Source: Dictyostelium discoideum
Taxonomy: Eukaryota
Direction: 5' to 3'
Assembly: GCA_000004695.1 (NCBI GenBank)
Contig: CM000154.2
Location: forward strand, 960,001-1,024,000
DNA length: 64,000 nucleotides
Shown here piece by piece: positions 4,552 to 62,191 of the stretch. A model generated the notes under the pieces. It did no database searches and was not told the DNA's origin. It worked only from the letters and a program-made list of their open reading frames with translations. The number at the start of each line of letters is the position of its first letter. Positions within the stretch are counted from its first letter, which is position 1. A program made the position numbers and the translations under genes.

Positions 4552-4584
<33 letters not shown>

Positions 4585-19731: not shown

Positions 19732-19780
<49 letters not shown>

Positions 19781-25634: not shown

Positions 25635-28399
<2,765 letters not shown>

Positions 28400-30247: not shown

Positions 30248-31724
30248 TTATTTTTTATTTAAAATAGAGTTTACTACATTTAAAACTTGACCAGATCTAA
30301 TTAATTTATAAACTTCTTCTATATCTGGTTGTATGAATCTATCTTTATCCATAAAAGTAACTTTTGAACGTACTAATTGATAGACTGCTTCTAATGGTTC
30401 AGTGGTTTTTAAAGGTCTTCTAAAATCCAAACCTTGACAAGCTGCTAATAATTCGATTGCTAAAACATTTTCAACATTTTCAACAACATTTAAACATTTA
30501 CGAGCAGACCAACCACCCATTGAAACGTGATCTTCTTTTGCACTACTTGTGCTAATGGTATCTGCAGAAGAAGGATGAACCAAAACTTTATTTTCACTTA
30601 CCAAAGCAGCACTTGTACAATGAGCAATCATGAAACCTGAATTTAAACCACCACCATTTACCAAAAATGATGGAAGACCATCACTCAATTGTGAATTTAC
30701 CAAACGTTCTAAACGACGTTCACTAATATTTGAAAGTTCATGAATACCAATTGTAAGGTAATCCAATGCCTTTGCAGGATACTCACCATGGAAGTTACCA
30801 CCACTAATTGTGCCACATAATTCATCAGTGTCGAAAACCATTGGATTATCAGTTGCAGAGTTCATCTCGGTGTTTATAATTCCCTGAACGAAATCAATGG
30901 TATCGAAAACGATACCATGAACTTGTGGTACACAACGTAATGTATAACTATCTTGAACTTTCTTTGTATCTTTATTTGCCAATGTAATCTCTGATGGATA
31001 TTGGTCACTATGAAGTACTGATCTTAAGAATGCTGCAACCCTACCTTGACCTGAATGTGGTCTGGCGGCATGGATCAATGGATGGTAGGCGGCAGTCAAA
31101 CCTTTTAAAGCTTCAAATGTCATTGCTGTTATAATATTGGCAGTCTCTGCCAATACCTTACAACGATAAACTGCCTCTGCACCCAATGAAGTAATCAATT
31201 GTGTACCATTAATCAATGCAAGACCTTCCTTTGCGTTCAATTCAATTGGTGTTAAATTTTGTCTCTTTAAAATTTCATTGGCTGGTGAGAATTTAAAGTT
31301 TCTATACTCTAAAACATCGACATCCAAGTTACTGGTGAATGTATTTCCACTGTCGCCAAAATCATACATCTTACCCTCACCCATCATACCCAATGCTAAA
31401 TGTGATAATGGTGCTAAATCTCCAGATGCTCCAACTGTTCCTTTCTCTGGAACCAATGGTAAACAATTACCATTCAATATTTTAATTGCTCTCTTTACTG
31501 TCTCTAATGTAATACCACTGTATCCTTTTGTTAATACATTAATTCTTAATGCTAATAACATTCTAGTTCTTTCTGGTGTTAATGGTGTACCAACACCTGA
31601 TGAATGTGATCTAATTAAATTAACTTGTAACCTATTAAATAATTTAATAAATTAAAAAAATATATTAGTCGTAATTAAAAAATAAATGTTTTTTTTTTTT
31701 TTTGATCTTTATCTATTTGTATGT

Positions 31725-32895: not shown

Positions 32896-34678
32896 TTATT
32901 TATTTTTAATTTTTTTTTCAATTGCATATGAATCATGTTCTCTTAATAATTTTGAAAATTGTTCAACATCACCTTTATGTCTACTAATACTTTTTTGTAC
33001 ATTTGATATAAAATCAGGAGTCAAAACAATTTTTTGAGAAACACAAATTCTAAGAATCTCTAAACATTTCTCTGTATCTTTTGAGAATGAACTAATTATA
33101 CCTGAATAATGTTTTATATTTGGTCTATATTAAAAAAATAAAAATAAAAAAAAAATAAAAATAATTTCATAATTAATATCTAATAAAAAAAAAAATAAAA
33201 AAATCAATTAATCAATTAACACTTACGATATATTTAATTCTTTCATTTCTAATAATAATTCATAAACTTTAACATAATTTTTTAATTTTGAATAAGTTGA
33301 AATTAAAACTGAAAAAGATTCTTCATTTGGTTGTAAACTATAAGCAGACATATAATCAATGATTCTATTTATAATTATTTCTTCATCTAAATTTTCTTTT
33401 TTTGATATCTTTCTACAACTTGCAATTCTTAAACAAGTTCTAAACATGTTATTAACTAAATGAATATCTGGTCTAATATTTTTTGAAAAAATTTCTTCAA
33501 AAATTTCTAATGATTTATCAAACTTTATATATACATTTATTTTTTATATTATTAAAAATGATTATTAATAAATGAAAATAATAATAATAATACTAAAATT
33601 ATATTTATATACATACATCATCAATATTATTACAAGTTGATATTAAAATATCATAAGTTTTAGTATCAGGATTTAAATGTTGAGTAAAACGCATTTCTTT
33701 AAGAGTATCCCAAACTTGGAAAACACCAGAAGGATTCTTTGTTTGTTTACAAGCATTGAGTATAGTATTTATGAAATAACGATCAGGTGAAATTTGAGCC
33801 ATTTTAACTTTTTTAACTAAAGTCATATAAAAATCGATTTGTTTATTACCTTCTGCACGTAATTCATCCATTTCAGAGGTGTTTTTATTTGGTTTATTTA
33901 ATTCCTTTATTAATTCTTTTTTATTTAAATAATTATCTGCTAAATATTTCTCACTGATTGCTTTAATCCAAGTTGTGTAGCTTGTTATGTCTGGTCTAAT
34001 TCCAGAATCTTTCATTTTATCAATCATAGTGATGGCTTGATCATTATTGCCAATGGTGATCATTGTTTTCATTAAGATATTGAAAAAGTTTATTGAGACT
34101 GGTACTTGATATTTATCGATTTCTTCAATGATTTTATTGACTCTTTCTTGGATTTTGTTTGAGTCAATACTAGTTGAATGATTACAAATGTCCACCAAAT
34201 TACCAAACACGTGAATACTAGGTTTGATATTATCTTTTTTCATATCATTATAGATTTTCCATGATTGATTGAATTTATGTGCTTTTGAACATGCAAATAT
34301 TAATTTATCATATGCATATGCCGTTCTTCTTTCTGGCATACGTCTTGCAACTTGTAACATTCTATCGACATCACCACGATCTGCTAATTTTTCAAAATAT
34401 TGTTTCAATGACAATGATCTATCTTGTGGATCTCTTTCCATAATATGTGAGTTATTAAATTTCTTTACAACTAAACTATTCTCTGTTGAATGATCATTAT
34501 TATTATTATTATTCTTAATTTTTATCTTTGTTTCTTTAATTTCATTTATATTTTTTATATTTTCTTTAGGTTTCGTTATAATTGTTGGTATTGATTTATT
34601 ACTTCCATAATTCCTAATAACATTTTTAATTAAAAAACTATAATTTATAATTTTAAATGATTTATTTAGATTTAACAT
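32896..34678 (-). CDS. PPR/TPR-like repeat protein, probably mitochondrial (3 exons: 33617..34678, 33227..33522, 32896..33109)
   Basis: N-terminal basic/hydroxylated presequence MLNLNKSFKIINYSFLIKNVIRNYG. Degenerate 35-aa helical repeats (YAYDKLIFACSKAHKFNQSWKIYNDMKKDNIKPSIHVF...; ITMIDKMKDSGIRPDITSYTTWI...). Donors GTATGT (33616) and GTAAGT (33226); acceptors tataaAG and taatatAG; phases 0 and 2 consistent; stop at 32896. Confidence 0.5.
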
Positions 34679-36656: not shown

Positions 36657-36833
36657 ATGATTGCAAACAAGGATAAAGTTTATATTTATGACGTTTATTC
36701 TTACTTTGAGGATATAGATTATGATAATATTAAAAATAATAAAAATAATAATAATAATAAAAGTGTATTAATAAATAGTAGTAACAACAACAATAACAAT
36801 AACAATAATAACAACAACAACAACAACAACAAC

Positions 36834-36921
<88 letters not shown>

Positions 36922-37440
36922 GTTATATTGAACCAAATTTATTGTCATATTATGAAGAAAAAGAAAGTGTAAATAGTAAAAGTGGTAATAATAATTATAA
37001 TAATAGTAAAAATAAGATTCAGCTTCAACATAGAGAAATTAAAATAGGATCATATATAAATACAGAGGTTAATTATAAACAGGTTAATAGTGATAGTAGT
37101 AATAGTAATAATAATAATAATAATAGTTATCAAGATAATTTACCAATTAGTAGTTATCAAGAAAATATAGATGATGATGGTGGGAGTAATGAATATGAAG
37201 AAGAAAGAGAAGAAGAACAATATGATATTGAACCAAATAGTAATATTATTAATAGTGATGCAAAAACTATAAATTACACACCTGATATTTATTCACCACC
37301 TGTAAATAATTCAAATCGGAGTAGTATAAATAATAATAATAATAATTTTAATGCAACACATCAACCAATAATTATTAATAATAATAATAATAATAATCAA
37401 CAACAAAAACAACAATATCATCAACAATATCATCATCATC

Positions 37441-37506
<66 letters not shown>

Positions 37507-40500
37507 ATCAACAATATCAACAACAATTATTAAATTCATCAAATTTAATATCACAATTAAATAGATATTGTGGAAAGAGTAAAGATTATAAAGGTAAAGA
37601 TTGGAATGGTGAATTTCAAACGTTATTAACTCAAGAGAATAGTGAACAAAAGTTTAGAAAATTATCAAATTTAGCAAAGGATTTTGTTTCAACTGCAAAA
37701 TCATATGCAACCGTTATTATCAATGAATTATGTGTACCATTGGAGATGAAAACTATTAAACCTGTTGAAATTGGTGGATTTGCAGGTGGATTGAAATATC
37801 ATTGTCATGGTATACTATTTAAGTTTGCAATGGATACATTGTTGAATAAGGAATGTTGGATGTATGGTGGTACCACCCAAGGTGGACCAAGGGATGACTT
37901 TGCAGCCAAAGCAGCATCTAACGAATTGAAAGGATTGGTTAGTTATTATATGGCGGGTGTTCCAGGATTGAATTACCCATTGATGGCATTAATCGATTAC
38001 AAAGGGTTCCGATTGATTGCACTGTCGGTATTGCCCATTTCAAGTGACACCATCAAGTATGGATCCTCCGATAGCGGTTCAACCGTGCACAATTCAATAC
38101 CCGACCTTAACGAGAAAATGAAAGAAGCAGGAAGGAAATTAAATTTAAAATCGCATAGAGTTGGCTCGATAGCCGACCAATCGAATATTCTCTCCTCACC
38201 TGGTGATATTGAAGCTCATTTAGGTGAGGATAAAAGATATTATGTAATCGACTTTAGTCGTACCTTCCCACCAGAATCAATTACAAAACAACCAAATCTA
38301 AATAAAAGAAGTATTTTCTATAATCTACTTAGACCAGAGTTTGTAAGTAAATGGAAAGTGCCACTTTGTAGTGACTCTTTCTCTGGTTGGCAAAGAAATG
38401 ACCCAAACAAATTAACACACAATAAAGAAGTTATTGAAGCAACTGAATATTTAGTTAATGATTTGGTGAAACAATGCGCTGCAAGATTAGATAGTCAAGA
38501 TAAAGATGGTATAGTTAAAACCAAGCAAAATCAACAAACCTCTCAAATTTCATCTGCATCATCAACCACTGTAAAACTTGAATTACCTTCAGATTTTAAT
38601 GAAATTAAAAATAATTTTGCAAAGAAATTCTTACCAATTTTTCAAAAAAGATTTGAAAATATCTCTTTAAATTTTCAAGATAGTCCAACAACTCAAAATG
38701 AATTTGAATCTTCAATAAATTATAATTTATTTAATTCAATTGATTCAACAACATCTTCTTCACAATCTTCAAATTTAAATAGTAATAATAGTAACAATAA
38801 TAATAATCAAAGTAATATTTCACCAACTACTAAATCTGTTAATAATACAACTACAACTACAACTACAACTACAACAACTACAACTACTACTGCAACCACT
38901 ACAAATACAAATGATAACAACACTAATAACAACACTAATAATAATAATAATAATAATACAATGAAATTTAAACCAATGAATCCAATAAAGAATGAAGTAC
39001 CACAACAATTATCAAGAATTATTGAAGAAATGCATAGAATGGGTATTAATATTAGACATATGGGTAGAGTTAGATTTTATTCAAAATCAAAAGCAATTAG
39101 AGATTTATTATTAATGGAGATGGCAGCAAGATCAATTAAAACAATCATTAGAAATGAAATGAGATTAAAAATGAAAGAAGAACAAGGTTCAGAAGAACCA
39201 TTCAAAGAGATTGTAATTGAAATCTTTAATTCAGTATTAGATATTCAATCACCACTTTGGAAAAGAATTTTAGAATCTATAAAATCAAAATATTTTATGG
39301 CATTTTTAAAATTAAATGATGATAATGATAATAGTGATAATAGTGATGATGATGATAATAATAATAATGATGATAGTAGTATAATTGATAATGATAGTGA
39401 AGAGAAACAACAACAACAACAATCATCATCACCACCAACACCACAAGATGATGATAATAAATCAATAATATCATCAGTTTATTCAATGGGTAGTAAAATG
39501 AAAGAAGACATTGATGAGAATTGGATGGAAGGTATTAATTTAAAGAACTTAATTGATAGATTACAATTGTTAAGTGGTATTTCATTTTCACAGATGGCAC
39601 AGTACGAATTTGCAAGGGATCCATTTAGATTTCAATTTGTTGATTCAGATATTCAAGAGATTAGTGCAAATGTGAAACATATGAATATCATTGATTATGC
39701 TGAGGGTATGGCATTGTCAATGTCATCGAAATCAAAATTTGGTAGAGATAGATTAAGATTATTGAAAATGTCTGCACACAAATTCCAAATCTCATTAAAA
39801 AGTAATCCAGATAATTTCAATTGTATGTGTCAATTAGGTAGAACATTAATTCAACAAGCAGAGACATTATCACAAATCACTGGTATGTTGGGTAAAAATC
39901 TTTATCTAAAGACATTGGAAGATGGAATTTTAAAATTTTTAGATGCTCTATCAATAGCTCCAAATTTTACACCTGCCCATTATGAATTGGCTCATGTTTA
40001 TATTTTATTAGCACAATATTATCAATTGAACCTATATAAATCTTCAAAATATTATAAAAATGCATCTCATCATTTTATGAAAGCAATTGAAACTTTTGAA
40101 ATTAATAAAAATAATTATTTAAATAATAGTGGTAATGGTATTGGTGGTAGTGGTGGTGGTGGTGGTAGTAGTGGAGATAATTGTAATAATGATTTCGAAT
40201 CTGATTACTATTTTTTAAAAAATCAAAAAAATCAAGAAGAAGAAGAGGAAGAAGAAGATAAAAATGAAGAAAAAGAAGAAGATATTTTAAATGGTAATAA
40301 AGTTAAAAAAACAATTATTAAAGATATTGAATTATTATTTAAAAAAGGTATTGAAGGTTCATCAAGTTATATTATTGGTGTTTCAATAATTTGTCAAGCA
40401 TTAGAGAAATTATTTCCAAATGATTCAGAGATTTTATTATTGTTGGGTAAATCTTATATTTATAGACCTTATTATGATGATGGTAGCGCCAATGGTAAAT

Positions 40501-43192
40501 CTAAAGCAAAAGATTATCAATATCAAAATAATAAAGAATTCTATTATAAAGAGGCAACAAATGATTTCCATAGAGTATTATTAATAAATATTGAATTAAA
40601 GCATAAAGTTTTTGAAGTTGCTCATGATATTTGGTTAAAGAGTAAAACTGGTAATCGTAAATTATATTATCCCGCTGCAAATATATTTAGATTACTAATT
40701 AAAGAGAATTTTTATCGTGAAAATAAAGTTTATTCAATGTATGCTGATTCATTATTAGAAATTTTAAAAATGGAATTTAATCCACCACCACAACAATCAT
40801 TACCTAAATCATCATCATCATCATCATCATCATCAACAAGAACAACATCAACACCATCACCATCGTCGCCATCACCATCGCCATCAATTGAAAATTCACC
40901 AATTTTAAAATCAACACCATCATTACCATTAACATCAATATCATCAATGACACCAACACCAATGATACAACCAACTTTACCATCTGGATATTTATCAGAA
41001 TCAACTATACTTTTTGAACATTTATTTACAATTGGTAATCAATATATAATTGATAAATTTGAATCATCAATGGTGAATCAACGTGAAGAAATTTGTGATT
41101 TTATAAAGATGTCAAATCATTCAAAATTAATAAAGAATAAGTTAATTGAAATTTCAAAAACAAAGAAATTAATTAAACTGGATTTAAGTAGGACATTAAT
41201 TGGTGATCAAGATTTAAATTCAGTTGGTGAAATATTTGGTAACCAGTTGGAGGATTTAGATCTTTCACATTGTCCTTTAATTAGTGATTTCGGAGTTTCA
41301 GAATTTCTTTCAACTTTTGGTTTAAAATCATTACAATCCTTATCATTGGCTGGTAATTTAATTGCTGATAAAACCATTCAAATCATTTCAAATTTTTGTC
41401 CACAAATTCAAAGATTAGATATTCACAATTGTACATTTATAAACTCTGAATCATTATCTTTACTTTGTCAAATTTCAAAATTAAAAAATTTAAATTTATC
41501 AAAATGTAAAGTTTCAAATGATAATATTTTATCATTTTATCAACCAATCCCACAACAATCTCAACAACAACCTCAACTTCAACAACCTCAACAAATTCAA
41601 TCACCACAACAACCAAATTTACAAAAACAATTATCATTTAATAATGGAATAACACAACAAATTCAATCACCACCACCACCACCACCACAACAACAACAAC
41701 AACCATATATTAATAATCAATTATTTGAATTAATAATTAGAAATCAAAGTAGAATATCAGATGAAGGATTTAAAAGATTTCAATCATGGCATTGTTTAAA
41801 GATTTTAGATTTATCAGGTTGTTCAAAAGTATCGGATAATATATTTTTAAAGTTACCAAAATGTTTAAATCTTGAACAATTGATATTGGAAGCATGTTAT
41901 AATTTAACCGATGTATCAGTTATTGGATTTTCACAACAAATGCCAAATCTTTGGAAACTTTCATTAAAAGGTTGTAAATTTATTACTGATAGATCAATCG
42001 ATAGTTTAACAAATAATTGTAAAAAGATTAAAGATTTGAAATTATCACGTTGTCATTCATTAACCAATGAATCAGTGGAATGGATTGCAAATAGAATCAA
42101 TTTAACATTGGAAAGAATCGATTTATCAATGTGTCCACAAATTGCAGAATCAGCATTAATTCAAATTTTAGAGAGATGTGATCAACTTTCTTCAATAAAC
42201 TTTTCAGAGAATCCAAAAGTTTCCGATGATTTAATTACGGTTATCAATGAAAGGTTCCCGAATCTTGTTGATCTTAGATTGGATTCTTGTGGTAAAATCT
42301 CATCGGATGGTTTAAATCTTTCAAATTTAATTCAATTGAAAACTTTATCAATTATAAAATCACAAATTTATCATAACTCATTATCATTGTTAACATGTAC
42401 TCTATTGAATTTAACAAGTTTATCTTTGAAAGGTTGTTTCCAGTTAACTGACACTTCCTTCTTTTCCATTGGTCAATTGAAACAATTGGAAAGTTTAGAT
42501 CTATCAGAAAACTATAGATTATTAGATAGTTCAATGGTTTACATTTGTAGAAATTTAACAAAGTTAAAACGTTTGGATATCTCCTCTTGTTTACGTTTAA
42601 CCACTAAAACCTTTTTCTTGATTGGCAAGTATCTAACTAAAATCAGTGAATTGGTCCTCTCAGGTTGTGGTAATCTCAATGATGCTTCTCTAATTTATAT
42701 CTCTGAGAATCTATTGGCAATTCAACAATTGGATATATCAGGTTGTCAAATGATCACTGATAAAGGTATAGCTTCTTTGGCAAATAATCAAGTTCATCTT
42801 CAAGTGGTATCTTTAAAGGATTGTAATTCAATCTCTCAACAATCAATTGATATACTTAAAACTAAATGTCCCCTTTTTAAATTGGTACGTTTATCTTTAC
42901 ATTCTTTACCATTGGTTGGCGAATTAATGAATTCTCCAACAACTGATATCCTAAAACCAATCAATTTCAATGTTGGTACAACTGAAGAATGGAAACAAAT
43001 CTCTTTAGAAAAAAGAAAAAAAGAAATGGAAAGAAAAGAAAAAGAAAAACAAAAAGAAAAAGAAAAAGCTTTAGCTCCAAAATATTTAGATTTTAATAAT
43101 GAAAAATTAACTTATCATAAAATTTTAAATTATAAAAATGATAATTTAAAATTAGATCCGATGCATTTAGAAGTAAGTTTTAATTTTTTTTT

Positions 43193-43232
<40 letters not shown>

Positions 43233-43385
43233 AATTCTAATTCTAATTCATTAATTTATTTATTATTATAGAAATATCTTAAAGAAGATGAATTTATTAG
43301 AATATTCCAAGTTAAAATTGAAAATTTTAATTTATTACCATTATGGCAAAGAAATGAAAGAAAGAGGTTAAATGGATTATTTTAA
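36657..43385 (+). CDS. Giant Clu-domain + TPR-like + cysteine-containing leucine-rich-repeat protein (about 2210 aa; exons 36657..43172 and 43272..43385)
   Basis: After long poly-N/poly-Q tracts there is a Clu-type domain (HCHGILFKFAMDTLLNKECWMYGG...PLMALIDYKGFRLIALSVLPI...KRYYVIDFSRTFPPE, compare CLU/TIF31 RYYILDL.RTFPPD), then TPR-like helices. The C-terminus is a long array of LRR_cc/RNI-type repeats (LDLSHCPLISDFGV..., LDLSGCSKVSDNIF..., LKLSRCHSLTNESV..., IDLSMCPQIAES...). GTAAGT donor at 43173 and tattatAG acceptor at 43271, phase 0. Confidence 0.5.
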
Positions 43386-50491: not shown

Positions 50492-51315
50492 ATTTTTATT
50501 TATTTTTTATTTTTTTTTTTTTCCTGCATTGGCACAGGTCACCTTCCCAAATAAATATCCCAAATAAAAAAAAAAAAAGCCATTCTTATGATATGATCAA
50601 AAAATAGGGGATTTTTTTCAATATCTTATTTGGCTCAAAATTATAATAATAAAAAAAAAAAAAAACAAATTAAATAAATAATAAAAAAAAAAAAAAACTC
50701 TTAATAATATTTTTCAAACTTTTTTTTTTTTTTTTTCAAATAATATATTAAAAAATATCCCCCATAAAAATTTTTTTTTTTTTTTCACAATTAAGTTCTT
50801 TTATAATATATATATATAAAAAATATATATATTTTTAAAATAAATAAACCAAAAAAAAAAAAAAAAAAACCAAAAAAAAAAAAAAACCCCTTTTTTATTT
50901 TTTTTTTGGGGGGGGGGGAATCAAGTTTTTTAAAAAAAAAAAAACACACACACACATTCACCTACATAAAAAAAAGGGAATAGAAAAGAGAAAAAAAAAA
51001 GGATATCAATAAATACAATAAAAAAATGGAGGCATTTAGAAATATTAAAAATAAGTTTGCAAAACATATGGCCGCTAGGAAAATTAGAGTACTATGGGCC
51101 GATTATTTAAAAGTTGCAGACATAAAGTAGGTACTAAACAATTTTCATCTCTTTCTTTCATTTTTATATCTCATCCAATCTCCTTTCATAAACAATACTA
51201 TATTTAAATCATATCATACACATAACACTTTAAATTTATAATGTTATAATAACTAATATTATAAATTTTTTTTTTTTTTTTTTTTTTAAAAACATTATAA
51301 AGAGATTCACATTTA

Positions 51316-54300
51316 ATGGTACAAAAATTGAATAAATTTTTAGATTCATTTCAAGAAACATATAAAGAGTTGGTAGATTCAGGTCAAATTAATTCATTCG
51401 ATTTAGATAAATTCTTTGGTGATTGTTCAGATATCTTGGTATCATTATTAGATTTAGTTGAAAGAGAGTCGTCATCATCATCATCGTCTTCTACTTCAAC
51501 AGCAATAGTAAAACATACAAATAAAGATGAATCAATAGATTATATAGTTGAAATTATAAATAAATCATTAGGTGTAGCTGAATTGATATTACATGTAAGT
51601 GGTAGTTGTAGTAGTGGTATATATATATATATATATATATGCTGATAATATTTAATACTAATATTAAATAAAATATAGGATGAAAAATATAGATTGGTAG
51701 TTAAAGAAACACCAAATTTAATAAATAGAATACTTACATTATTGGATACATTAAGTACAAGTGAGAATAAAAAAGTATTATTAAGAGTTATTAGTGCAGT
51801 TGGTGAGAATACAGATAATAAATTAGAGATTGGTAGATTGGAAGGATTTAAGAAATTATTGGTTTTAATGCATAACGATAAGGAGTTAACTCAAGAGATT
51901 TTAAAAACTATTAAACACTTTTTAGATATAAAACAAACATTACCTTCAGAGGAGGAATTAATAAACAATATGAAGAAATCATTATCAATGTCTTCAATTA
52001 GTGAATTTGCAAGATTAAAAATTGGTTCTGTAGTCTCTGAAGGTTTTAAAGTTATCGTTGGTGAATTTCAAAAAGTTTTCTCACCAAATGATGAAATTCA
52101 TCCTGCTATAAAACAATTAATTGGTGAACAACCATTGTATGTATATAATAATATATTACAAATACAAAAGTTATCTCATATTAACATTTTTTATTTTATT
52201 TTATTTTATTTTTTAAAATAATATAATAGTAATAGAGGTATTGATATGACAGAAGAAAGTTCATTCATCCCATCGCGTGAATCTATTGAATTTGCTTTAA
52301 TAGAATTACAACATAGTGAATTGGTTAAAGAGAATAGTATTAATAATAATAATAATAATAACAATAGTGTTATTGAAGAAATCGACAATACTATTACACA
52401 ATTACCATCACCACCTATAGCGGTATCATTACCAAATCCTAGCATTCCAATCCCAATTTTAAATGGTAATAATGATAGTAATAATAATAATAATATTTAT
52501 TCCGAATCTTCTAGTAATTTAGAAAATAATTCAAATGAACTACAACAGCAACAAGAAGATAATAATAATAGTTTAATAACAGAAGAAGAATTATTAAAAG
52601 ATTTTATGCGTGTTCAAGGTGCATTAGTATCATTAACAAATTCAATTAAAGAGGCAGCACAAACTGTACAATTAGATTTATTGGAAACCATTAGTAAATT
52701 GTTATATAATAATCAAAAGAATCAAATTGAATTTAGAAATATGGATGGTTACTCTATATTGATTCATTTATTCGATAATCATTTAGAAGATTTCGGCACA
52801 ATTGAAGGCAGAGAATTCTTGGAGAATTGTTTCAATTTGTTTTTCGTTATAATCATTGATGGTAATAAATCAAAGAGAATTACAAATATGGATGCTTTAG
52901 ATCTATTGTTTCAAATTCTATTAAATTCAAATCAAACAGAAGTTCAATTACAATCTTTAACATGTATTCAAGATTTAATTTCAATTAATCCAATCAATAT
53001 TATTAATATTAAATCTATAAATGGTATTGATAAATTATTTCAATTATTATTAATTTTAGAAAAGGTAATTATTTAAAATTATTATTATTATTATTTTTTT
53101 TATTATTACTTTTTTTTTATTTTTTTTATATGTATTTAACAGTCGCTCAGCTTTTGGAATCTAATAGTCCAATAAGGAAGGTTAAATACTAGATTAATAA
53201 TTTATTTATAATCATTATCTATACTACTATGATTATAAATAAAATTGTGGTTAGAATATAATCATAATAATAATTTTTTTAATATATATTTTCTTTTTAA
53301 TTTAAAATATATTTTAATTATTATTTTCCATACATTACTTTTATTAAATATTATTATATAAATTTTATTTTATTAAAACTATTTTTTACTAAAATAACTT
53401 TTTTTTTTTTTTTTTTTTATAATAATTAATAAAGAAAAAAGAAAATGAAAAAGAGAAAAATAAAGAAAATGTAGAACAAAGAAATGAAAATATAGAAGAA
53501 GAAGCAGGATTTGAATCATATCAACGTCAACAACAACAACAAACAGATAATTTAGTTGAAAAAGATTTAACAAAGTTATTATTAGCAACAAGTGAATTAA
53601 TACTTTATATTGGTGTTTTATTTAGTAAATATGATACATACGTATTCGATAAGTATATATCATTATTGGAGAATTCAAATGTACAACAATCACATACATT
53701 AAATTGTTTATTACTTCAATCATCTATAACCATCTTATCGGATACAATCTATCATCAATCACTACTATCAACTAAAGAGGGTTTATTACCAAACTTTGTC
53801 GATTCAATTAGATCAATTCCATCACAATTTCAACAATTATTAATAGAAGAACAAAATCATCAAAAATTACAAGATGAACAATTTGAAAGACAAGATTATT
53901 TATTAAATCAAAGAGTAGTACAAAATGGTATTGTTAATAATAATAATAATAATAATAACAATAATAATAATAATAATAATGAAGAGAAAGAAATAAAAAT
54001 AGAACAAGATGATAATAATTATAATAATGAAGAAGAGGAAGAGGAAGAAGAAGAAGAAGAAGAAGCGGAAGAAGCTGAAGAAGAATATAGAATTAGAATT
54101 GATATGGAAGAGAAAACAAACTATTTAATTCAAAAACAAACTAGAATCACTGAAAAGGCTTTATTGGTTTTAGAGTTAATTATTATGTATATCCATTATT
54201 CATCCGATACTTTATTTAATGACTTTTTAATCAAATATGATGGTTTCAAATTATTTGTAACATTATTAAAACAAACAAATATCGATAATGATTTATTCGA

Positions 54301-57180
54301 TCTTTGTATTTGGAGTATGTGCAAAATAATCTCTCGAGAAGGTAAACAGTTTCAATTATTTTTAAATAAAAATACTCCTCTTACTCCTTCAACACTATCA
54401 CCATCACCATCACCATCTTCTACCACAACTACAACTACAACTTCAACTACGACTACAACCACCACAACATCACCTTCACCATCATCTTCAACTACAACAA
54501 AAACAGCAACCACTTCAATTAATTGGAATCAAATAATTAATAATGATATGAATATTTTAATTCAGTTATTAGAAGATAATCAAATATCAGACCAAAAGAA
54601 AGAATCAATATGTTATTGTATTGCAGAGTGGTTACATCAAATAGACTCTAATGTTGCATCATCATCATCATCATCATCAACAGGTGATAAAAAGGATTCA
54701 TCAAAGGTTTTGGAACAAAAACAATTTTCAAATTTATTGAAAATTAAATTCCAAGAGTTAGGTTTATTACATATTCTAATTAACATTATTAAAAAGAAGA
54801 GAACAGAGGAATCTCAATCATTGGTTTATGCATCATTGGTTGCAATTTGTGAATTATGTTTTGCTTGTGAAGAAAATAAACGTGTAATTGATCAATTGGG
54901 TTATATGTCTTTATCATCATTAGTAAAGAATACAAGTGTACAAATCGATGATTATCTATATCAATTATTGGTAGAATTAACTATGAATAAACCTGTGGTA
55001 ATAAGATATGAAACTCAATATCTTAAAGAATTCTTCTCACCAAATCTTTATAAAATCATTACAAATATTTTATCACCTCAACCACAATTCACTTTTATTT
55101 TACCACACTCAAAGAAACATCATGATATTTCTTCTTATAACACTTCAGTTTATCAACAACAACAACATCATCAACAACAACAACAACAACAACATCATAA
55201 TCAACAAGCACAATTATATCAACAACAACAGCAGCAAATTCAACAAGCACAATTATATCAACAACAACAATTATATCATCAACAACAACAACAACTTTAT
55301 CAGCAACAATTATATTTACAACAACAACAACAACAGCAACATTTATATCAACATCAAATTCAACATCAACAATACCAATATGGTGATGAAATTAATTTAG
55401 GAGATGATAATATTGATTTTCCAAAAGATTCTCCAATATCTAGTCCATCAACAACACCAGTTGCTTCTTTATCAAACTCATTCAATGGTTACCAAGGTAT
55501 TCATTTATATCAACAATATCAATTACAACAACAACAGCAATTACAACAGTTACAACCAAGTTTATCGCATCATTTACAACAAAGAGTTGGAATTGTAAGA
55601 GTACCAAGTTTTAAAAATTTATTCACAGTAACAAGAAGAAATAGTATTGGTTCTTGGGCTGGTTCTTTTGATGATTTATATTCACAACAACATTCTCATC
55701 AAATACCAACATCATCACAACAACAACAACCACAACCACAACAATCACCAAGAGATAATGCCAGTGATGGTGGTAATGGTACAAATAGTATTTCAAAGAA
55801 TTCATCACATCCACAATTAGCAGGTTTAGAGGAAGAGAAAGAAACCATCTATTCTTACACTCTTTTGGGTAGATCAAGAATTAGATCTCCTGATGCAGCA
55901 TTGATGTTGGTTGATTTATTACCACAATGTCCACTAATTTCCCAACAATTGAATTTGGTATTGTTAATGAAAATTTTAGAATCAAATCCACAAAATAAAA
56001 AAATGTTATGTTCATCACAAGGTTTGAAATATTTATTAAATCTCTCTCATCAATGTCCAGAAGAATTACAATCCTATTATAGTCGTGTCATTGTTATTTT
56101 AGGTTTATATGATATTTCACCAGCTGAAGTTAGACTATTATTTGATTTGGCTTGTTTCCCATCATTTGATACTCATCCACATTTAAATCAATTACAACAG
56201 CAACAACCAACAACATTACATCAAAGTTCAAATTCAACTGGTAGTAATGGTAAAAGAGAAAAGAATAGAAAATATGAATTACAAATGCAAGTTTTATATA
56301 TTATTGGCACTTTAACAGAGAGAAAAGCACCACCACTTTATTTTAATTTCGATGGATTCGATAGTTGTATTAAGACAGGACCAATCGATAAATTCCCTTC
56401 CGCTAGAAATGGTTATACATTTAGTTGTTGGATTCGTACAAATTATTTCCTTAGTGATGAATCTGGTTTATTCAGTTGGCAAGATCATTCAAATATCCAA
56501 CATAATCCACATAGTATCTTTGAGGTTTATTTCAAATCTTTACCATTGGGCAAATCATCAGAAACTAAACGTTATCTTTGTATTCAAACTAGAAATTATC
56601 CATCACCACCAGAAACTTTTTCATTCGATAAATTTGCTTTCTCTGAATGTGGTAGTTGGAATCACGTTGTTTTAACTCATTCAAAACAAAAAATAACCTT
56701 ATATGTCAATGGTAAATTCATTCAAAATTATAGTACACTTAATTATCCAAAATCAATAACAAAAGATAAACCAATCTCTGGTTGGATTGGTAAAAGAATT
56801 TATTCAGAAAATACTACCAACACCGCCACAAATAACACTATTAATGGTACAACTCCTCAGTTTTGCGCTAATACAAGTGGTAATGTTGCAGAAAGAGGTT
56901 ATTTTTGTGGTTCAATGGGTACAATTCACTTTTTCGATGGAATTTGGGACGCAAATGCTTGTCACAAAGTTTGTAGTAGAGGTAATCTTTACAATAGTAC
57001 CTATAAATCATTAGGAGTTGATAATAAAGAGTTTTTAGTTATAAAACCTGCTCCAATCCAATACCAAACTTCAACCACTACACTCAGTAATAGTTTTAAT
57101 AGTAGTCTTCTTAATAGTGAACCTCCACCATCATTAAGTTTCTCAATGTCTGGAGATAACTTTTTCCAACAACCATCACC

Positions 57181-57250
<70 letters not shown>

Positions 57251-59350
57251 CCAACAGGATCAAGTAATACAACATCACCAGTTTCAATTTCTAATACTAT
57301 TAATAGCACATTAACAATTGATAGTCAATCAATTTCAAATTCTCCATCAACTCCGTCGGGTAAATCTCTACCAACAACGACAACCGCAACAACAGCAACA
57401 GCATCAATAACATCACAAAATCAAAGTGAAAATTCACCATCTTCATCACCATCAATTAATAGAACTCAATCATTTTCACAAGAAAATGATGATATTACTA
57501 GTGGAAATAATAATTTAACATTATCAAATGGTGGTGAATTATTTAAATCAATACCAATTATTAATGTACCAAACGAAACTCAAGGTGCTGTTATTGAATT
57601 TATTGGTGGTGTCAATGTTCATCAAACAAGATGTCTTAAAGATGTAATTAAAGAAGTTGGTGGTATTCATTTATGTTTCCCATTTTTAGATATGGAACCA
57701 GCTCAACAAGTTGCTGGTTTAAGAATCTTATCTGGTCTATTGAACAAGAGTGAATCCAATAAAGCACAATTTAGAGAATTGAATGGTTTTGCTATCCTCT
57801 ACTATCTATTAAATAGATTCTCTGTATCAAATATCTCAAGTCCATATAGTGAGCTATCAATGGAAACATTTGAAATCATTTTCGATCTTTTATTAGATGG
57901 TATGAATAATACAGGATCCGATGTTAAACATCTTTGGAGTAATGATTGTTTAACTTTAATCTTGGATTTACTCCAATTCTGTAGTGAAGATCTTCAATTA
58001 CATGTTCTTAAATATTTAAATACAATGCTATTAAATTCACCTGATACTCTTAAACTTTGGATCACTCAATCCGATAATGAAAATCAAAATCAATCAAATC
58101 CACATTTAACTCCAAGTGTTACTGGTATAACTAGTGGTACTGATTTATTAAATGAGCATCAACATCAACAACAATTACAACAACAACAACAACAACAACA
58201 ACTTTCAAGTAGTAATAATAATGCAATTTCCTCAAATACTATATCCCCACCTTCATCCATTTTATCATCAACTTCAACAACAACTACAACAAACATTACA
58301 CAATTAACAACTACAATCAATTCAAATACGACAACTCAAGTATTATTATCATCATCTTCCTCAACTTCAGTTACAAATTCAACATCAAGTAATCTACCAG
58401 CATTTTTAAATACTGTAAACATTTCCAGATTAAATTATTTATTGGATATGGCAATGAAGCTATCCACAGATTCAACCTTTTTGTTTGGTATTATTAGAAA
58501 GATCCTTCCATCAATTGGTGCTGAAGATGTTGAATCAATTTTCGAATTTTTAACTGAAAACAAAGAAGGCTACTTTGAAAAGATTGGGACAAAATCAAAG
58601 ATATTGGAATTGGTTTATGAAGAGATGAGAAAATGTCCAACTCTAGTCGACCATCTAAGATCGATTGGTGGCTTCAATCTTGTATTCTCTTTAATTGAAA
58701 TACCAAGTGAAGAAATTCATATATTGACAATTAAATTAATTGGTCTATTATTGCATTCCAATAATAAAGCAGCTCTATTGTTTAGAAAGAATGGTGGATT
58801 CGATGTTTTAGCATCAATGATTTCAAATTATTCAATACCATCAGCTTCAGTTTGTAGAACCCTTTTACATCTATTGGTTGATCAATATAAATTCGATCCA
58901 AAATGTGTTCCACCAGAAACTAAACAAAGATCATTATCTTGGATATCTTTAGATTTCTTTTCACGTGATAAAAGTTCAGATTCTCTCTCAACTCTAGCTT
59001 CTTCAACAAATGATCTTTCAGAACCAGAGGAATCCCAATCATCATCAACAACAACAACAACCACAAACACAGATGAAGTATTAATTACAGGTGATAAAAC
59101 TATTGTATACCCAGAGGCTTTACATTCACTATTTACCATTATTCATAGTTATTATTTATTACCAATTGATGTAATTAGATTTGAAGAAATTCAAAAAATT
59201 CAAGTCACTCTCTATACTGAAATTGAACAACTTTTTGATAATACAAATATGGATATTTTATGGAATCAACCTTGGTTTGAATGGGTTTATCAGTTAATTG
59301 ATTTTTCAAACTTTGTAAATAATAATAATAATAATAATAATAATACTGTA

Positions 59351-59405
<55 letters not shown>

Positions 59406-60812
59406 CAACTAATAATAATAATAATAATAATAATAATAGTATTAATAATAATAACAATTTAAATGGTAGTGGTCAAAATATTAATACCAACCTTTCACCA
59501 TTCCAATTCTCAAAATCAAATATTGCTTATGTTAAATTATTATCAGTTTGTAAAAAATTGGTACTTTATGAATTAACCAAAAAACAATCAAAAATATTAA
59601 AATTAAAAGGTATGTTTAAAAAAAAAAAATAATAATATTGTAAAAACCATTCAAGTTTGAGCACTTTTCAAAATTTGAAAATTATGCATATTAATTTTAT
59701 ATGAGCTCCCATATAAAAATATTTGAAATTACAAAAAGTGCGCAAATTTGGATGGTTTTCACAATAATAATAATTTAAAAAATAGTACTAATATTAAAAA
59801 AATTAAAAAAAAATTTATAGAAATTTGTATAGATAATGAAGAATTTTATGTTGATATTGTAGATTCAGTTATTGATTATTTTGAACAAAATTCATATGTT
59901 TTACCAGATAATTCAACAGAATTAATAAAGAATTTGGTACAATTCTTTAAATCATTGGATGATTTAACAGTTCCATATCAAGTTTCAATGAGAATTATTG
60001 ATTTAGTTAATTCGATTGCATTCCAAAATACACCAGCCATTAGATTGCAAATGAAATCCAATGGTTTGGTTGAAATTAGAGATAACCTAATCATTCTATT
60101 ATTAGGAAATAGTAATACAAGAGCAGACTTTTTTAGTAAATTTGATTTCGAGTGTGTAGCTGATCAAAAAGCATTTAGAGATTCGGGTGGTTTATTATAT
60201 CTTTTACAATTTTTCCATCAATCCTATGGATCATTCGATAGACAAATGGAGATTTATCATGTATTAAAGAATGTAATGAGCTCAAGTAGTGAAGAGAATA
60301 GAAAAATCATTTCAAATATTTTAGAAGATCAAGTTACTATTCAAATGTTTTTTGGTGAAGATTTATTTGGTAAAAACAACAACAACAACAACACTAATAA
60401 CAATAGCAATAACAACAAAAAGAATCAAACTCCACCTACTTTAATTAATGATAATGATTTCAATTTCGTTGAATGGTTTAACTCTGAAGAACTATCATCA
60501 AAGAGATCAGATTTTAAGAATAGAATTGAAAAAGTGTTGGCACCAATTGAAAATAAATTCAATAATCAATTAGATAAACTTATGAAATTAAAAGAAAAGA
60601 GAATTAAACAACGTAGAGAAAAGATTTTCAAACAACAATCTGTAATCTCAAAACTATTACATGAAACAAATGAAAAACGTAGAATTCGTTCAAATAAAAT
60701 GAATTCACTTTATCTTGCAAAATCTCAATTAATTCCTTTTAAATCTCAAGAACGTTTAAAACTTGGTAAAGAAAGAGCATCACGTTTATCCCCTGTTTCA
60801 ATTTTAAATTAA
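51316..60812 (+). CDS. Neurobeachin/Lvs-like giant protein: ARM-type alpha-solenoid + concanavalin-A-like (LamG) domain, about 2900 aa, apparently without PH-BEACH-WD40 module (exons 51316..51594, 51679..52136, 52236..53064, 53435..59609, 59821..60812; possible extra 5' exon from ATG 51026)
   Basis: ConA-like domain FNFDGFDSCIKTGPIDKFPSARNGYTFSCWIRTN...WNHVVLTHSKQKITLYVNGKF...FCGSMGTIHFFDGIW aligns with the neurobeachin ConA-like domain (FFNFPG...NGFTLNTWFRMD...RCYVNGQLV...FCGQLGAVYVFSEAL). It is followed by EVGGIHLCFPFLDME (NBEA SIGGIQVLFPLFAQLD). Donors GTAAGT (51595), GTATGT (52137), GTAATT (53065) and G|GTATGT (59610); acceptors at 51678, 52235, 53434 and tttatAG 59820; all phases consistent. 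Stop at 60810-60812 followed by a (CAAAA)n array. The 5' end is uncertain because the MEAFRNIKNKF... mini-exon at 51026 cannot be phased unambiguously. Confidence 0.6.
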
Positions 60813-60825
60813 TTTTAAAATCAAT

Positions 60826-60827
60826 AA

Positions 60828-60858
<31 letters not shown>

Positions 60859-60882
60859 CAAACAAAACAAACAAAACAAAAC
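60826..60882. repeat. (CAAAA)n microsatellite directly 3' of the neurobeachin-like gene
   Basis: Direct reading. Confidence 0.9.
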
Positions 60883-61150: not shown

Positions 61151-62191
61151 TTAAAAGATTTCATCTCGGATTGGTGGTAATTGGAGGAAACTATCATTGT
61201 TTATAAAATGAGACTCTACCGATGGTACATTATGGAATAATGGTGATGATAAAATTGGTGACTGAGAGGTTGGTGTTAAAGAGAATGGTGATGCTGATGA
61301 TGATGATGAAAGTGATGATTTGAATAAAACATCACAACTTGGATAATTATTTTTATATTTGTTACAAATTGGAGGTGGTAATGAAATTGGCGTATTGGTT
61401 TCTATATTACCATTGTAACTATTATTATTATTATTATTATTATTATTGTTGTTATTAATATTATTAATGTTATTGAAATTTGGATGTGGTGTAGGTATTG
61501 AAACTAATTTCATACCATTTTTAATATTATTATTTTGAATTTGATTTTGATTTTGATTTTGATTTTGATTTTGATTATTTTGATTATTTAATAATAATTG
61601 AATTTGTTGTTGTTGTTGTTGAATTTGTTGTTGTTGTTGTTGGATTTGTTGTTGTTGAATAAGGAGTTGATCTTGTTTTTCTTTTTCAGAATCTTGGATT
61701 TGTTTTTCTAATCTTTTTTGTAATTGTCTTTTATGGAGTCTCTGTTCAAGTTCAAGTTTATATCCAACATTTGGGGAATTTAAATCTTGGATTGGTATCA
61801 AAGAAACTGGTGATAAAACTGGTGAACTACCATTTTGTGGAACTTGATATTGAGAAACTTTTAAAACTGGACTATTATTACCATTACTATTTGATGGAAC
61901 AACAGATGACTTGGTATGAGTTTTTTTTACTGTCACTTTACCAACCATTGGAGGAGAACTTGGAGAACTTGGAGAACTTGGAGAACTTGATAAATTAATT
62001 GAGTCATTTTGTAATAATTGTTGATTATTTTTATGTTTTAATTTTGGACTGCATGCTCTTGGTGATCCACTTTTTGGACTTGATGTTTTTGGACTACCAT
62101 TTTTTGAACTTCCTTTTTGGCCACATAATTTTGGACTTGATGGATCAGTCATGATAAAATCCCAAGTTGGCACTTTAAAATTTAAATTCAT
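61151..62191 (-). CDS. Ser/Pro/Gln/Asn-rich low-complexity hypothetical protein (346 aa)
   Basis: Single continuous ORF (MNLNFKVPTWDFIMTDPSSPKLCGQKGSSKNGSPKTSSPKSGSPRACSPK...) with SPxx repeats, a QQQQIQQQ tract, a (QN)n tract and poly-N. Convergent with the upstream gene. No catalytic motif. Confidence 0.45.
   Translation of the reverse strand: MNLNFKVPTWDFIMTDPSSPKLCGQKGSSKNGSPKTSSPKSGSPRACSPKLKHKNNQQLLQNDSINLSSSPSSPSSPSSPPMVGKVTVKKTHTKSSVVPSNSNGNNSPVLKVSQYQVPQNGSSPVLSPVSLIPIQDLNSPNVGYKLELEQRLHKRQLQKRLEKQIQDSEKEKQDQLLIQQQQIQQQQQQIQQQQQQIQLLLNNQNNQNQNQNQNQNQIQNNNIKNGMKLVSIPTPHPNFNNINNINNNNNNNNNNNNSYNGNIETNTPISLPPPICNKYKNNYPSCDVLFKSSLSSSSSASPFSLTPTSQSPILSSPLFHNVPSVESHFINNDSFLQLPPIRDEIF

What the first reader, a model, noticed from the sequence alone, without database searches (positions are those of the whole stretch)
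51026..60812. Neurobeachin-like giant protein that stops before any PH-BEACH-WD40 module
The protein has the alpha-solenoid plus ConA-like/LamG architecture, and the post-ConA block (VGGIHLCFPFLDME) seen in neurobeachin/LvsA-type BEACH proteins. Yet the ORF terminates at 60812 in a basic coiled-coil tail, followed by a microsatellite and a convergent gene 340 bp away. No BEACH signature is present anywhere in the window. A BEACH-less paralogue of the Lvs family, or a gene split from its BEACH half, would be unusual.
Basis: partly seen in the sequence, partly recalled or inferred. Interest (0 to 1): 0.55.

Follow-up and report, generated by a model that had tools for sequence, protein, structure and literature searches.

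The report
Ancient neurobeachin-like protein without BEACH
This is an intact six-exon gene for a 2,948-residue protein that resembles the front two-thirds of neurobeachin-type trafficking proteins but ends in its own conserved helical module instead of PH-BEACH-WD40; the same BEACH-less architecture occurs in amoebae, early-diverging fungi, Rhizaria and jakobid/heterolobosean protists, and I found no paper describing it.

Summary
The + strand at 51026-60812 carries one gene: six exons, 2,948 aa, all introns GT..AG. Pfam finds a ConA-like domain and the DUF4704 solenoid above its curated cut-offs. It finds no PH_BEACH, Beach or WD40. Real BEACH proteins match the 64-kb window only in this gene's front part.

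The stop at 60812 is genuine. The protein is collinear from the first residues to the last few with a 2,335-aa Basidiobolus protein, and to residue 2171 of 2243 of the Heterostelium one. An orthologous locus from another assembly ends the same way, next to a different convergent gene. Misjoin, frameshift and gene split are therefore rejected.

This is not a Dictyostelium oddity. A profile search found 354 relatives. Every hit above rank 93 lacks BEACH. 64 retrieved proteins carry a shared C-terminal module, 20 carry BEACH, and none carries both. Named members come from Dictyostelia, Arcellinida, Zoopagomycota, Mucoromycota, Plasmodiophora, jakobids and a heterolobosean.

AlphaFold2 models show an ARM-flanked LamG/pentraxin-type jelly roll. 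They also show a C-terminal ARM/HEAT-like solenoid followed by a basic helix of about 100 residues.

Function is inferred only: a solenoid-lectin scaffold that lacks the cargo-tail-binding PH-BEACH unit. I rate it a new variant of a known kind, of moderate interest.

The parts
51026..51126 (+). Exon 1, ATG at 51026
   Evidence: Splice enumeration. The N-terminus 'MEAFRNIKNKF..YLKVADIKD' aligns with the starts of dictyostelid orthologues P0169, P0168 and P0002.
51303..51594 (+). Exon 2. Intron 1 is 51127-51302, GTAGGT..AG, 17% GC.
51679..52136 (+). Exon 3, N-terminal ARM-like repeats. Intron 2 is 51595-51678, GTAAGT..AG.
   Evidence: The junction 'ELILHDEKYRLVVKETPNLINRIL' is identical in pattern to the orthologues. 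Weak ARM_ARMC5 hit, E 2e-4, below the cut-off.
52236..53064 (+). Exon 4, with a conserved ARM block 'LKDFMRVQGAL..LDLLETISKLL..'. Intron 3 is 52137-52235.
   Evidence: Weak Arm_4 hit; the same Pfam family scores 37.9 bits against a cut-off of 27 in the Heterostelium orthologue. The exact acceptor of intron 3 is not resolved.
53435..59609 (+). Exon 5, the main body. Intron 4 is 53065-53434; its acceptor is approximate.
   Evidence: About 28% of the protein is Q/N/S/T low-complexity insertion.
56336..57043 (+). ConA-like/LamG-type beta-sandwich. Three further strands at 57560-57625 follow a disordered insert.
   Evidence: Pfam Laminin_G_3 at 56402-56800. The AF2 model has strands at residues 166-401 and 574-595 of the segment starting at 55841. 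Foldseek against PDB: PAPP-A LG domain, pentraxins, neurexin LNS and laminin G, E down to 8.8e-9.
57656..57697 (+). Post-ConA block VGGIHLCFPFLDME, the start of the DUF4704-type solenoid
   Evidence: Coordinates. Aligned with the GGI..(L/V)..P(L/F)L block of 10 BEACH proteins.
58508..59149 (+). DUF4704 alpha-solenoid, the stretch matched by Pfam
   Evidence: PF15787, 28.5 bits against a cut-off of 22.9. Orthologues score 38.7-65.8 bits.
59492..59609 (+). Start of the family-specific C-terminal module, the part lying in exon 5
   Evidence: Alignment A4: 'VCKKLVLYELTKKQSKILKLK' against orthologue '..QKMxxYDIxRKxS..KLK'.
59610..59820 (+). Intron 5, 211 nt, GTATGT..TTATAG, phase 1
   Evidence: This is the only splice that reproduces the orthologue sequence 'KLKEICIDxEEFYV'. 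Two earlier candidate splices were rejected.
59821..60812 (+). Exon 6: the rest of the C-terminal module, the basic helix and the stop (TAA at 60810-60812)
   Evidence: AF2 pLDDT 84.7: short-helix solenoid at 59838-60368 and a single long helix at 60486-60788. An HMM of this module hits 64 BEACH-less proteins and none of the 20 BEACH proteins.
60826..60882 (.). (AAACA)n microsatellite in the 3' intergenic region. AATAAA lies at 60823.
61151..62191 (-). Convergent neighbouring ORF, 346 aa, S/P/Q/N-rich, not part of this gene
   Evidence: No Pfam family at E<=1e-4.

Best explanation
Region 51026-60812 (+) is a complete, intact gene. It encodes a member of an old eukaryotic family that shares the front two-thirds of 'typical' BEACH-domain proteins. 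The order of parts is: N-terminal ARM-like solenoid, ConA-like jelly roll, DUF4704 solenoid. Where BEACH proteins have PH-BEACH-WD40, this family has its own conserved C-terminal module. That module is about 180 residues of ARM/HEAT-like repeats, a variable linker, and a basic helix of about 100 residues that ends the protein.

Shown here: the gene model, the domain content, the absence of BEACH, the conserved C-terminus and the wide taxonomic spread.

Inferred only: the protein acts as a large solenoid-plus-lectin scaffold on endomembranes, like the N-terminal part of BEACH proteins. It lacks PH-BEACH, the unit reported to bind cargo cytosolic tails, and it lacks the beta-propeller. It therefore cannot sort cargo the way BEACH proteins are reported to. 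It more likely contributes scaffolding or partner binding through the solenoid, the ConA-like domain and the conserved basic C-terminal helix. The confidence value below refers to identity and architecture. Confidence in the functional inference is about 0.3.
For: - Gene model: all five introns are GT..AG with 10-18% GC, against 27.6% GC for the CDS. The exon junctions reproduce orthologue sequence.
- Domains: Pfam Laminin_G_3 and DUF4704 score above their curated cut-offs. The AF2 model of 55841-58087 shows helical repeats, then a beta-sandwich, then helical repeats. Its best PDB matches are LamG, pentraxin and PAPP-A LG domains, E 8.8e-9.
- Homology to BEACH proteins: a family profile hits 8 BEACH-containing representatives at E 2e-20 to 1e-11. 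With the full-length family profile, the next-best hits after family members are a Cavenderia BEACH protein, plant SPIRRIG-like proteins and a chytrid NBEAL2. The post-ConA motif is shared.
- No BEACH: for the window; and the precomputed Pfam list for the orthologous locus L001.
- Genuine C-terminus: blastp is collinear with Basidiobolus P0005, query 38-2953 against subject 3-2334 of 2335, and with Heterostelium P0002 to residue 2171 of 2243. L001 ends with the same 'F.EWY.S..KR...RI.K.L.P.E.KF' motif and basic tail, then a convergent TMEM208 gene.
- Family-specific module: 64 proteins have it, 20 have BEACH, none has both.
- Spread: Heterostelium, Acytostelium, Synstelium, Pyxidicula, Basidiobolus, Mortierella, Actinomortierella, Entrophospora, Thamnocephalis, Plasmodiophora, Stygiella, Pharyngomonas and Andalucia.
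- Functional premise: purified PH-BEACH of NBEAL1, NBEAL2, LRBA and ALFY binds the CTLA4 tail. The binding of NBEAL2 mapped to its C-terminal PH-BEACH-WD40 fragment, not to its N-terminal solenoid+ConA fragment (PMC11554844).
Against: - There is no transcript, localisation or interaction evidence for any family member. The function is extrapolated from the shared domains.
- The Pfam scores in the window protein itself are modest, at 28-31 bits.
- The crude NJ tree does not separate BEACH-less from BEACH proteins with support: 31 of 200 bootstraps. A single ancient origin therefore rests on the shared C-terminal module, not on the tree.
- The window protein lacks the terminal 'WDYFKQKLWDSVLW' motif that four other dictyostelid members have.
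Confidence: 0.85

Rival explanations
1. Assembly misjoin, frameshift or gene split: the protein is really a normal Lvs-type BEACH protein whose PH-BEACH-WD40 half has been cut off or lies elsewhere.
For: The ORF ends in AT-rich, repeat-rich sequence with a microsatellite directly after the stop. The window protein is a few residues shorter than its dictyostelid orthologues after 'ERLKLGKER'.
Against: The C-terminal 330 residues are a conserved module that ends the protein in 64 relatives from very different lineages. None of them has BEACH. The fungal orthologue P0005 aligns to within 1 residue of its own C-terminus. The independent locus L001 ends the same way, next to a different gene. No other frame near the stop encodes the missing motif, and no BEACH-like sequence exists in 64 kb.
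Confidence: 0.03
2. A recent, decaying truncated duplicate (pseudogene) of one of the Dictyostelium Lvs genes.
For: About 28% of the protein is low-complexity insertion. The Pfam scores are low.
Against: The 8.8-kb reading frame is intact, with canonical introns. Conserved blocks show 50-79% identity to other dictyostelids and 27-41% to fungi over the full length. The nearest BEACH proteins are far more distant than the BEACH-less relatives. Low-complexity inserts are usual in this kind of AT-rich genome (general knowledge).
Confidence: 0.02
3. The protein works with canonical BEACH proteins rather than on its own. It would pair with them, or compete with them, through the shared solenoid/ConA surfaces, acting as a partner subunit or a decoy for their membrane-recruitment factors. 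In that case the BEACH function is supplied in trans.
For: The front architecture and the post-ConA motif are shared. Dictyostelids also encode canonical BEACH proteins, for example P0172 from Cavenderia and LvsA-F in D. discoideum (established knowledge). Many coat-like assemblies combine solenoid-only subunits with propeller-containing ones (general knowledge; protocoatomer discussion in PMC11554844).
Against: There is no interaction evidence. The family is retained with its own conserved C-terminal module, which suggests partners of its own.
Confidence: 0.2
4. The function is not membrane traffic. The conserved basic C-terminal helix, with its KEKRIKQRREK-type runs, would direct a nuclear or nucleic-acid/RNP role.
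For: The tail has pI 10.3 and is 29% K+R. The plant BEACH protein SPIRRIG has a reported P-body/mRNA-stability role (abstracts of PMC5701936 and PMC9537460).
Against: This rests on composition only. The rest of the protein matches only trafficking-family domains.
Confidence: 0.1

Closest known systems
Typical BEACH-domain-containing proteins of the neurobeachin type: NBEA/LRBA, NBEAL1/2, Dictyostelium Lvs proteins such as LvsA, plant SPIRRIG
   Same: - The order is the same: large ARM/HEAT solenoid, then ConA-like jelly roll, then DUF4704 solenoid.
- The motif 'D.I..(V/L)GGI.(V/L)..P(F/L)L' directly after the ConA-like domain is shared.
- The profile similarity is significant.
   Different: - There is no PH_BEACH, BEACH or WD40 propeller, and no DUF4800 or Pfam 'Neurobeachin' (PF20425) match in the window protein. 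Canonical relatives show all of these.
- It has instead a C-terminal helical module and a basic helix that were found in none of the 20 BEACH proteins retrieved.
Uncharacterised database entries of the same family, for example Heterostelium album PPL_09493 (UniRef100_D3BN82, 'DUF4704 domain-containing protein'), Acytostelium subglobosum SAMD00019534_089000, Basidiobolus meristosporus ORY01541.1, Mortierella claussenii KAI1320523.1, Plasmodiophora brassicae PBRA_004975 and Andalucia godoyi KAF0852693.1
   Same: Collinear similarity over the full length, the same Pfam content, the same C-terminal module, and no BEACH.
   Different: - The window protein carries many more Q/N/S/T low-complexity inserts.
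- It ends 11 residues after 'ERLKLGKER', without the 'WDYFKQKLWDSVLW' extension of other dictyostelids.
- None of these entries has a functional name. The names 'NTF2 domain-containing', 'C2H2 Zn-finger' and 'mitochondrial protein' are not supported by the Pfam scan, which I ran for P0033 only.
Generic ARM/HEAT alpha-solenoid scaffolds: importin-beta family, AP adaptor trunks, formin GBD/FH3 (compared with the C-terminal module only)
   Different: Sequence identity is only 6-13%, with no family-specific match. The resemblance is at the level of helical repeats only.

Membership tests
BEACH-domain-containing proteins (BDCP; Lvs/neurobeachin family) | BEACH domain (Pfam PF02138) | tested here: not met
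   There is no Pfam Beach hit at E<=1 in any exon ORF. tblastn with a BEACH consensus gives a best E of about 2 across all 64 kb. Five real BEACH proteins give no hit with their BEACH regions.
BEACH-domain-containing proteins (BDCP; Lvs/neurobeachin family) | PH-like domain preceding BEACH (PF14844) | tested here: not met
   No Pfam hit. The AF2 model of the C-terminal 329 residues is entirely helical.
BEACH-domain-containing proteins (BDCP; Lvs/neurobeachin family) | C-terminal WD40 beta-propeller | tested here: not met
BEACH-domain-containing proteins (BDCP; Lvs/neurobeachin family) | ConA-like lectin domain embedded in an alpha-solenoid | tested here: met
   Laminin_G_3 scores 31.2 bits, above the 27.6 cut-off. 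The AF2 model shows a beta-sandwich flanked by helical repeats. Foldseek finds LamG, pentraxin and PAPP-A matches at E 8.8e-9.
BEACH-domain-containing proteins (BDCP; Lvs/neurobeachin family) | DUF4704 solenoid after the ConA-like domain (neurobeachin subclass) | tested here: met
   PF15787 scores 28.5 bits, above the 22.9 cut-off. The motif shared with BEACH proteins is shown.
BEACH-less DUF4704 proteins (PPL_09493-like; a provisional family defined here) | Collinear full-length similarity from N-terminus to C-terminus | tested here: met
   blastp against P0002, P0005, P0014, P0015 and others. N-terminal alignment.
BEACH-less DUF4704 proteins (PPL_09493-like; a provisional family defined here) | C-terminal module: solenoid with the invariant N, R, R, R positions of alignment A5, the 'F.EWY.S' motif and a basic terminal helix | tested here: met
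   Alignments A4 and A5. The module HMM scores E 2.3e-131 on the window protein. 64 members have the module and none of them has BEACH.
BEACH-less DUF4704 proteins (PPL_09493-like; a provisional family defined here) | Monophyly relative to BEACH-containing proteins | tested here: inconclusive
   An NJ tree on 461 core columns gives 31 of 200 bootstraps for the split, and the plant long branches misplace.

The most novel reading that the evidence does not exclude
The gene represents an undescribed family that may date back to near the last eukaryotic common ancestor. It would be a sister, or a precursor form, of the BEACH-domain proteins: the solenoid-ConA-solenoid scaffold capped by its own C-terminal helical module instead of PH-BEACH-WD40. 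It is retained in Amoebozoa, early-diverging fungi, Rhizaria and Discoba. No animal, plant or Dikarya member appeared among the hits I could name. If this is right, the N-terminal scaffold of BEACH proteins has a function that does not depend on BEACH, and that function could be dissected genetically in Dictyostelium.
Probability: 0.5. Interest if true: 0.65.

Novelty: new variant of a known kind. Interest (0 to 1): 0.5.

Why it matters
BEACH-domain proteins underlie several human diseases involving LYST, LRBA, NBEA and NBEAL2. Yet about two-thirds of each protein, the giant solenoid with its ConA-like domain, has no assigned function. Current descriptions say that all typical members share PH-BEACH-WD40 (PMC11554844).

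A conserved, widespread family keeps only that unexplained front part and adds a different C-terminal module. This is a natural separation-of-function experiment. It suggests the scaffold does something on its own. It also offers a haploid, tractable organism in which to test that by knockout, tagging and interaction proteomics.

The family also adds a data point for how the BEACH family was assembled during early eukaryote evolution. If the gene proves dispensable, or its role unrelated, the finding reduces to the annotation of a hypothetical-protein family.

Tried and rejected
- Two wrong splice models for the last intron (59561/59738 and 59614/59785). I replaced them with 59610/59820 after the orthologue alignment showed a 13-residue false insertion.
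- First word-indexed homology search with a masked query. It returned a single hit, P0001. No 100%-identical protein was returned, so the window's own protein appears to be absent from that collection.
- Word-indexed search with the C-terminal module alignment A5. It returned nothing, although known members exist. I treat this as a failure of candidate selection, not as evidence of absence.
- PDB sequence search of the core. It gave only poly-Q and poly-N matches to Dictyostelium nuclear-pore proteins.
- NJ phylogeny. The first attempt timed out. The later trees give no supported BEACH versus BEACH-less split. In one search a BEACH-less fragment, P0111 (822 aa), nests among BEACH proteins, probably because it is a partial sequence.
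- Heptad analysis of the tail helix was not significant, so I do not call it a coiled coil.
- Rfam and tRNA scans of the window found nothing.
- The afdb50 fold library was unavailable.
- Literature searches for DUF4704, for naturally BEACH-less homologues and for BEACH evolution found no description of this family.
- I searched all six frames for the missing 'WDYFKQKLW' terminal motif, as a test for a hidden frameshift or an extra exon. It is absent.


Full report
SETTING. The window is about 16-33% G+C. It carries ordinary eukaryotic genes: ECM29, a dymeclin/Hid1-like gene, Atg6, histidine ammonia-lyase, a PPR protein and a CLU-domain protein. The composition, the short AT-rich introns and the poly-N/Q tracts are those of a Dictyostelium-type genome. 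I did not establish the species.

OBSERVATION.
- ORFs on the + strand between 51026 and 60812 join into one gene.
- The final model has six exons: 51026-51126, 51303-51594, 51679-52136, 52236-53064, 53435-59609 and 59821-60812. This gives 8,847 nt and 2,948 aa.
- All introns are GT..AG with 10-18% GC, against 27.6% GC for the CDS.
- My first two versions of the last intron were wrong. Alignment with dictyostelid orthologues showed a false 13-residue insertion. Only the canonical GTATGT donor at 59610 with the acceptor ending at 59820 reproduces 'KLKEICIDxEEFYV'.
- The N-terminal junctions and the start codon agree with the orthologues. The acceptors of introns 3 and 4 remain approximate.
- Pfam on the exon ORFs gives Laminin_G_3 (31.2 bits, cut-off 27.6) and DUF4704 (28.5 bits, cut-off 22.9). 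It gives weak ARM-type hits in the N-terminal exons. It gives no Beach, PH_BEACH, WD40 or DUF4800.
- The stop is TAA at 60810-60812. AATAAA follows at 60823 and an (AAACA)n array at 60826-60882. A convergent 346-aa ORF starts 338 bp downstream.

IS BEACH MISSING, OR JUST MISSED?
It detects eight true BEACH proteins at 268-414 bits. On this window and on the orthologous locus it gives nothing better than E of about 2.
- Five real full-length BEACH proteins were used as tblastn queries. They match the window only at 52582-57838, the ARM/ConA/DUF4704 part of this gene. Their PH-BEACH-WD40 regions match nothing.
- An AlphaFold2 model of exon 6 (329 aa, 19-sequence alignment, mean pLDDT 84.7) is entirely helical. 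About eleven short helices are followed by one helix spanning residues 222-322.
- There is therefore no cryptic PH domain, BEACH fold or propeller.

IS THE END GENUINE?
- The only hit of the first database search, P0001, lies on a 21-kb contig (L001, 42% GC) from assembly GCA_025450795.1. That contig carries a collinear orthologue covering query residues 34-2799.
- Its last ORFs encode the same '..F.EWY.S..KR....RI.K.L...E.KF..' motif and a basic tail, then stop. A convergent TMEM208 gene follows.
- blastp shows the window protein is collinear from its first residues to its last few with Basidiobolus P0005 (subject 3-2334 of 2335). It is collinear with Heterostelium P0002 to residue 2171 of 2243.
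- The C-terminal module of about 330 residues is found at the end of dozens of relatives.
- Misjoin, frameshift and gene split are therefore rejected.
- One small difference remains. Four other dictyostelids continue 'ERLKLGKERWDYFKQKLWDSVLW..', whereas the window protein ends 'ERLKLGKERASRLSPVSILN*'. No frame in the window encodes the missing motif. Fungal members end at about the same point.

THE FAMILY.
- A profile was built from P0001 and two low-complexity-free window segments. Searched against 1.84 billion representatives, it found 354 proteins at E<=1e-3 and 66 at E<=1e-30.
- BEACH appears only from rank 93 downward (E>=2e-20). All better hits lack it, including many of 2,000-3,800 aa.
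- An HMM of the C-terminal module hits 64 of the 184 retrieved proteins. 20 proteins have BEACH. The overlap is zero.
- Pfam on four long members and on the Plasmodiophora member gives the same content as the window protein. Four of the five have Laminin_G_3 and DUF4704 above cut-off; in P0024 Laminin_G_3 falls below it (21.8 against 27.6). The four long members also show ARM-type hits. None has BEACH.
- Canonical relatives show Neurobeachin, DUF4704, DUF4800, PH_BEACH, Beach and NBCH_WD40, and one of the two (P0103) also Laminin_G_3.
- Named members come from these groups:
  - Dictyostelia: Heterostelium, Acytostelium, Synstelium.
  - Arcellinida: Pyxidicula.
  - Zoopagomycota: Basidiobolus, Thamnocephalis.
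  - Mucoromycota and Glomeromycotina: Mortierella, Actinomortierella, Entrophospora.
  - Rhizaria: Plasmodiophora.
  - Discoba: Stygiella, Andalucia, Pharyngomonas.
- All are annotated as hypothetical or as 'DUF4704 domain-containing'.
- With the full-length family profile, the best non-family hits are a Cavenderia BEACH protein, plant SPIRRIG-like proteins and a chytrid NBEAL2.

CORE FOLD.
- AF2 on 55841-58087 (13-sequence alignment) gives high-confidence helical repeats, then a beta-sandwich at residues 166-401.
- A disordered low-complexity insert follows, and three more strands at 574-595 come after it. Helical repeats then resume.
- Foldseek against the PDB returns PAPP-A LG domains, pentraxins, neurexin LNS and laminin G domains (E down to 8.8e-9, probability 1.00).
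- The ConA-like assignment is thus supported by sequence and by fold.

PHYLOGENY.
- NJ trees on the core do not give a supported BEACH versus BEACH-less split: 31 of 200 bootstraps. Long plant branches misplace.
- A single origin is suggested by the shared C-terminal module but is not proven.

MECHANISM (INFERRED).
- Pankiv et al. 2024 (PMC11554844) describe typical BEACH proteins as alpha-solenoid/beta-propeller, coat-like cargo adaptors.
- In that study the purified PH-BEACH unit binds the CTLA4 cytosolic tail. The binding of NBEAL2 mapped to its C-terminal PH-BEACH-WD40 fragment rather than to the N-terminal solenoid+ConA fragment.
- The present family keeps only the part whose function is unknown. 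I therefore propose a solenoid-lectin scaffold that cannot bind cargo tails in the BEACH manner. It would act through the solenoid, the ConA-like domain and the conserved basic terminal helix (pI 10.3, 29% K+R).
- It could act alone or together with canonical Lvs proteins.
- A heptad pattern is not significant, so 'coiled coil' is not shown. Nothing here tests localisation or partners.

NOVELTY.
- Sequences of this family are in public databases, but without functional names.
- Five full-text searches (DUF4704; BEACH with LECA; BEACH with Dictyostelium, LvsA and ConA; cryo-EM with BEACH and ConA; phrases for naturally BEACH-less proteins) found no description of such a family.
- The library does not cover most subscription journals, so an earlier mention cannot be excluded.
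- I rate it a new variant of a known kind, with moderate interest.

Noticed in passing
window 60780-60812, compared with P0169, P0168, P0002 and P0003: The window protein ends 'ERLKLGKERASRLSPVSILN*'. Four other dictyostelid orthologues continue with a conserved 'WDYFKQKLWDSVLW' and a longer tail. No frame in the window encodes that motif.
   Followed up: yes
P0002 (Heterostelium album PPL_09493), compared with the window protein, P0168 and P0169: The public Heterostelium gene model appears to miss conserved segments. One is 'DEKYR..ETPNLINRIL..GRLEGFKKLL' near the N-terminus. Another lies in the C-terminal module after 'FRETNNGL'. These are probably mis-called introns in that annotation.
   Followed up: partly
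window 36657-43271 (+): A single 2,204-aa ORF combines a CLU (clustered mitochondria) domain, an eIF3_p135 region, TPR and a C-terminal LRR_4 hit. The CLU-plus-LRR combination was not examined further.
   Followed up: no
window 3824-8836 (-), 12113-13132 (+), 25913-28399 (+), 30248-31561 (-), 33605-34678 (-), 28438-29865 (-), 18356-20080 (-): The neighbouring ORFs have clear Pfam identities: ECM29 proteasome adaptor, dymeclin/Hid1-like, Atg6/Beclin (APG6 BARA and coiled-coil domains), aromatic amino-acid (histidine-type) ammonia-lyase, PPR protein, 'Transferase'-family acyltransferase, and endonuclease/exonuclease/phosphatase.
   Followed up: partly
window 59633-59760, inside intron 5: The middle of the last intron reads '..CCATTCAAGTTTGAGCACTTTTC..GAGCTCCCATAT..AGTGCGCAAATTTGGATGG'. 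It looks less AT-monotonous than the other introns. It creates a misleading TTG-started ORF at 59748 that runs into exon 6. Rfam found nothing there at gathering threshold.
   Followed up: partly
window 50860-50960, upstream of the ATG: The 5' flank holds long A and T runs interrupted by a C4..G11 tract and a (CA)n run. I did not analyse it.
   Followed up: no
window 61151-62191 (-): The convergent 346-aa ORF is rich in S, P, Q and N and has no Pfam match at E<=1e-4. Its function is unknown.
   Followed up: partly
P0033, P0164 and P0165 (Plasmodiophora); P0006; P0126 (Andalucia): The source names for family members look unreliable: 'NTF2 domain-containing protein', 'uncharacterized C2H2 Zn-finger protein' and 'conserved uncharacterized mitochondrial protein'. 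Pfam on P0033 shows only Laminin_G_3 and DUF4704.
   Followed up: partly
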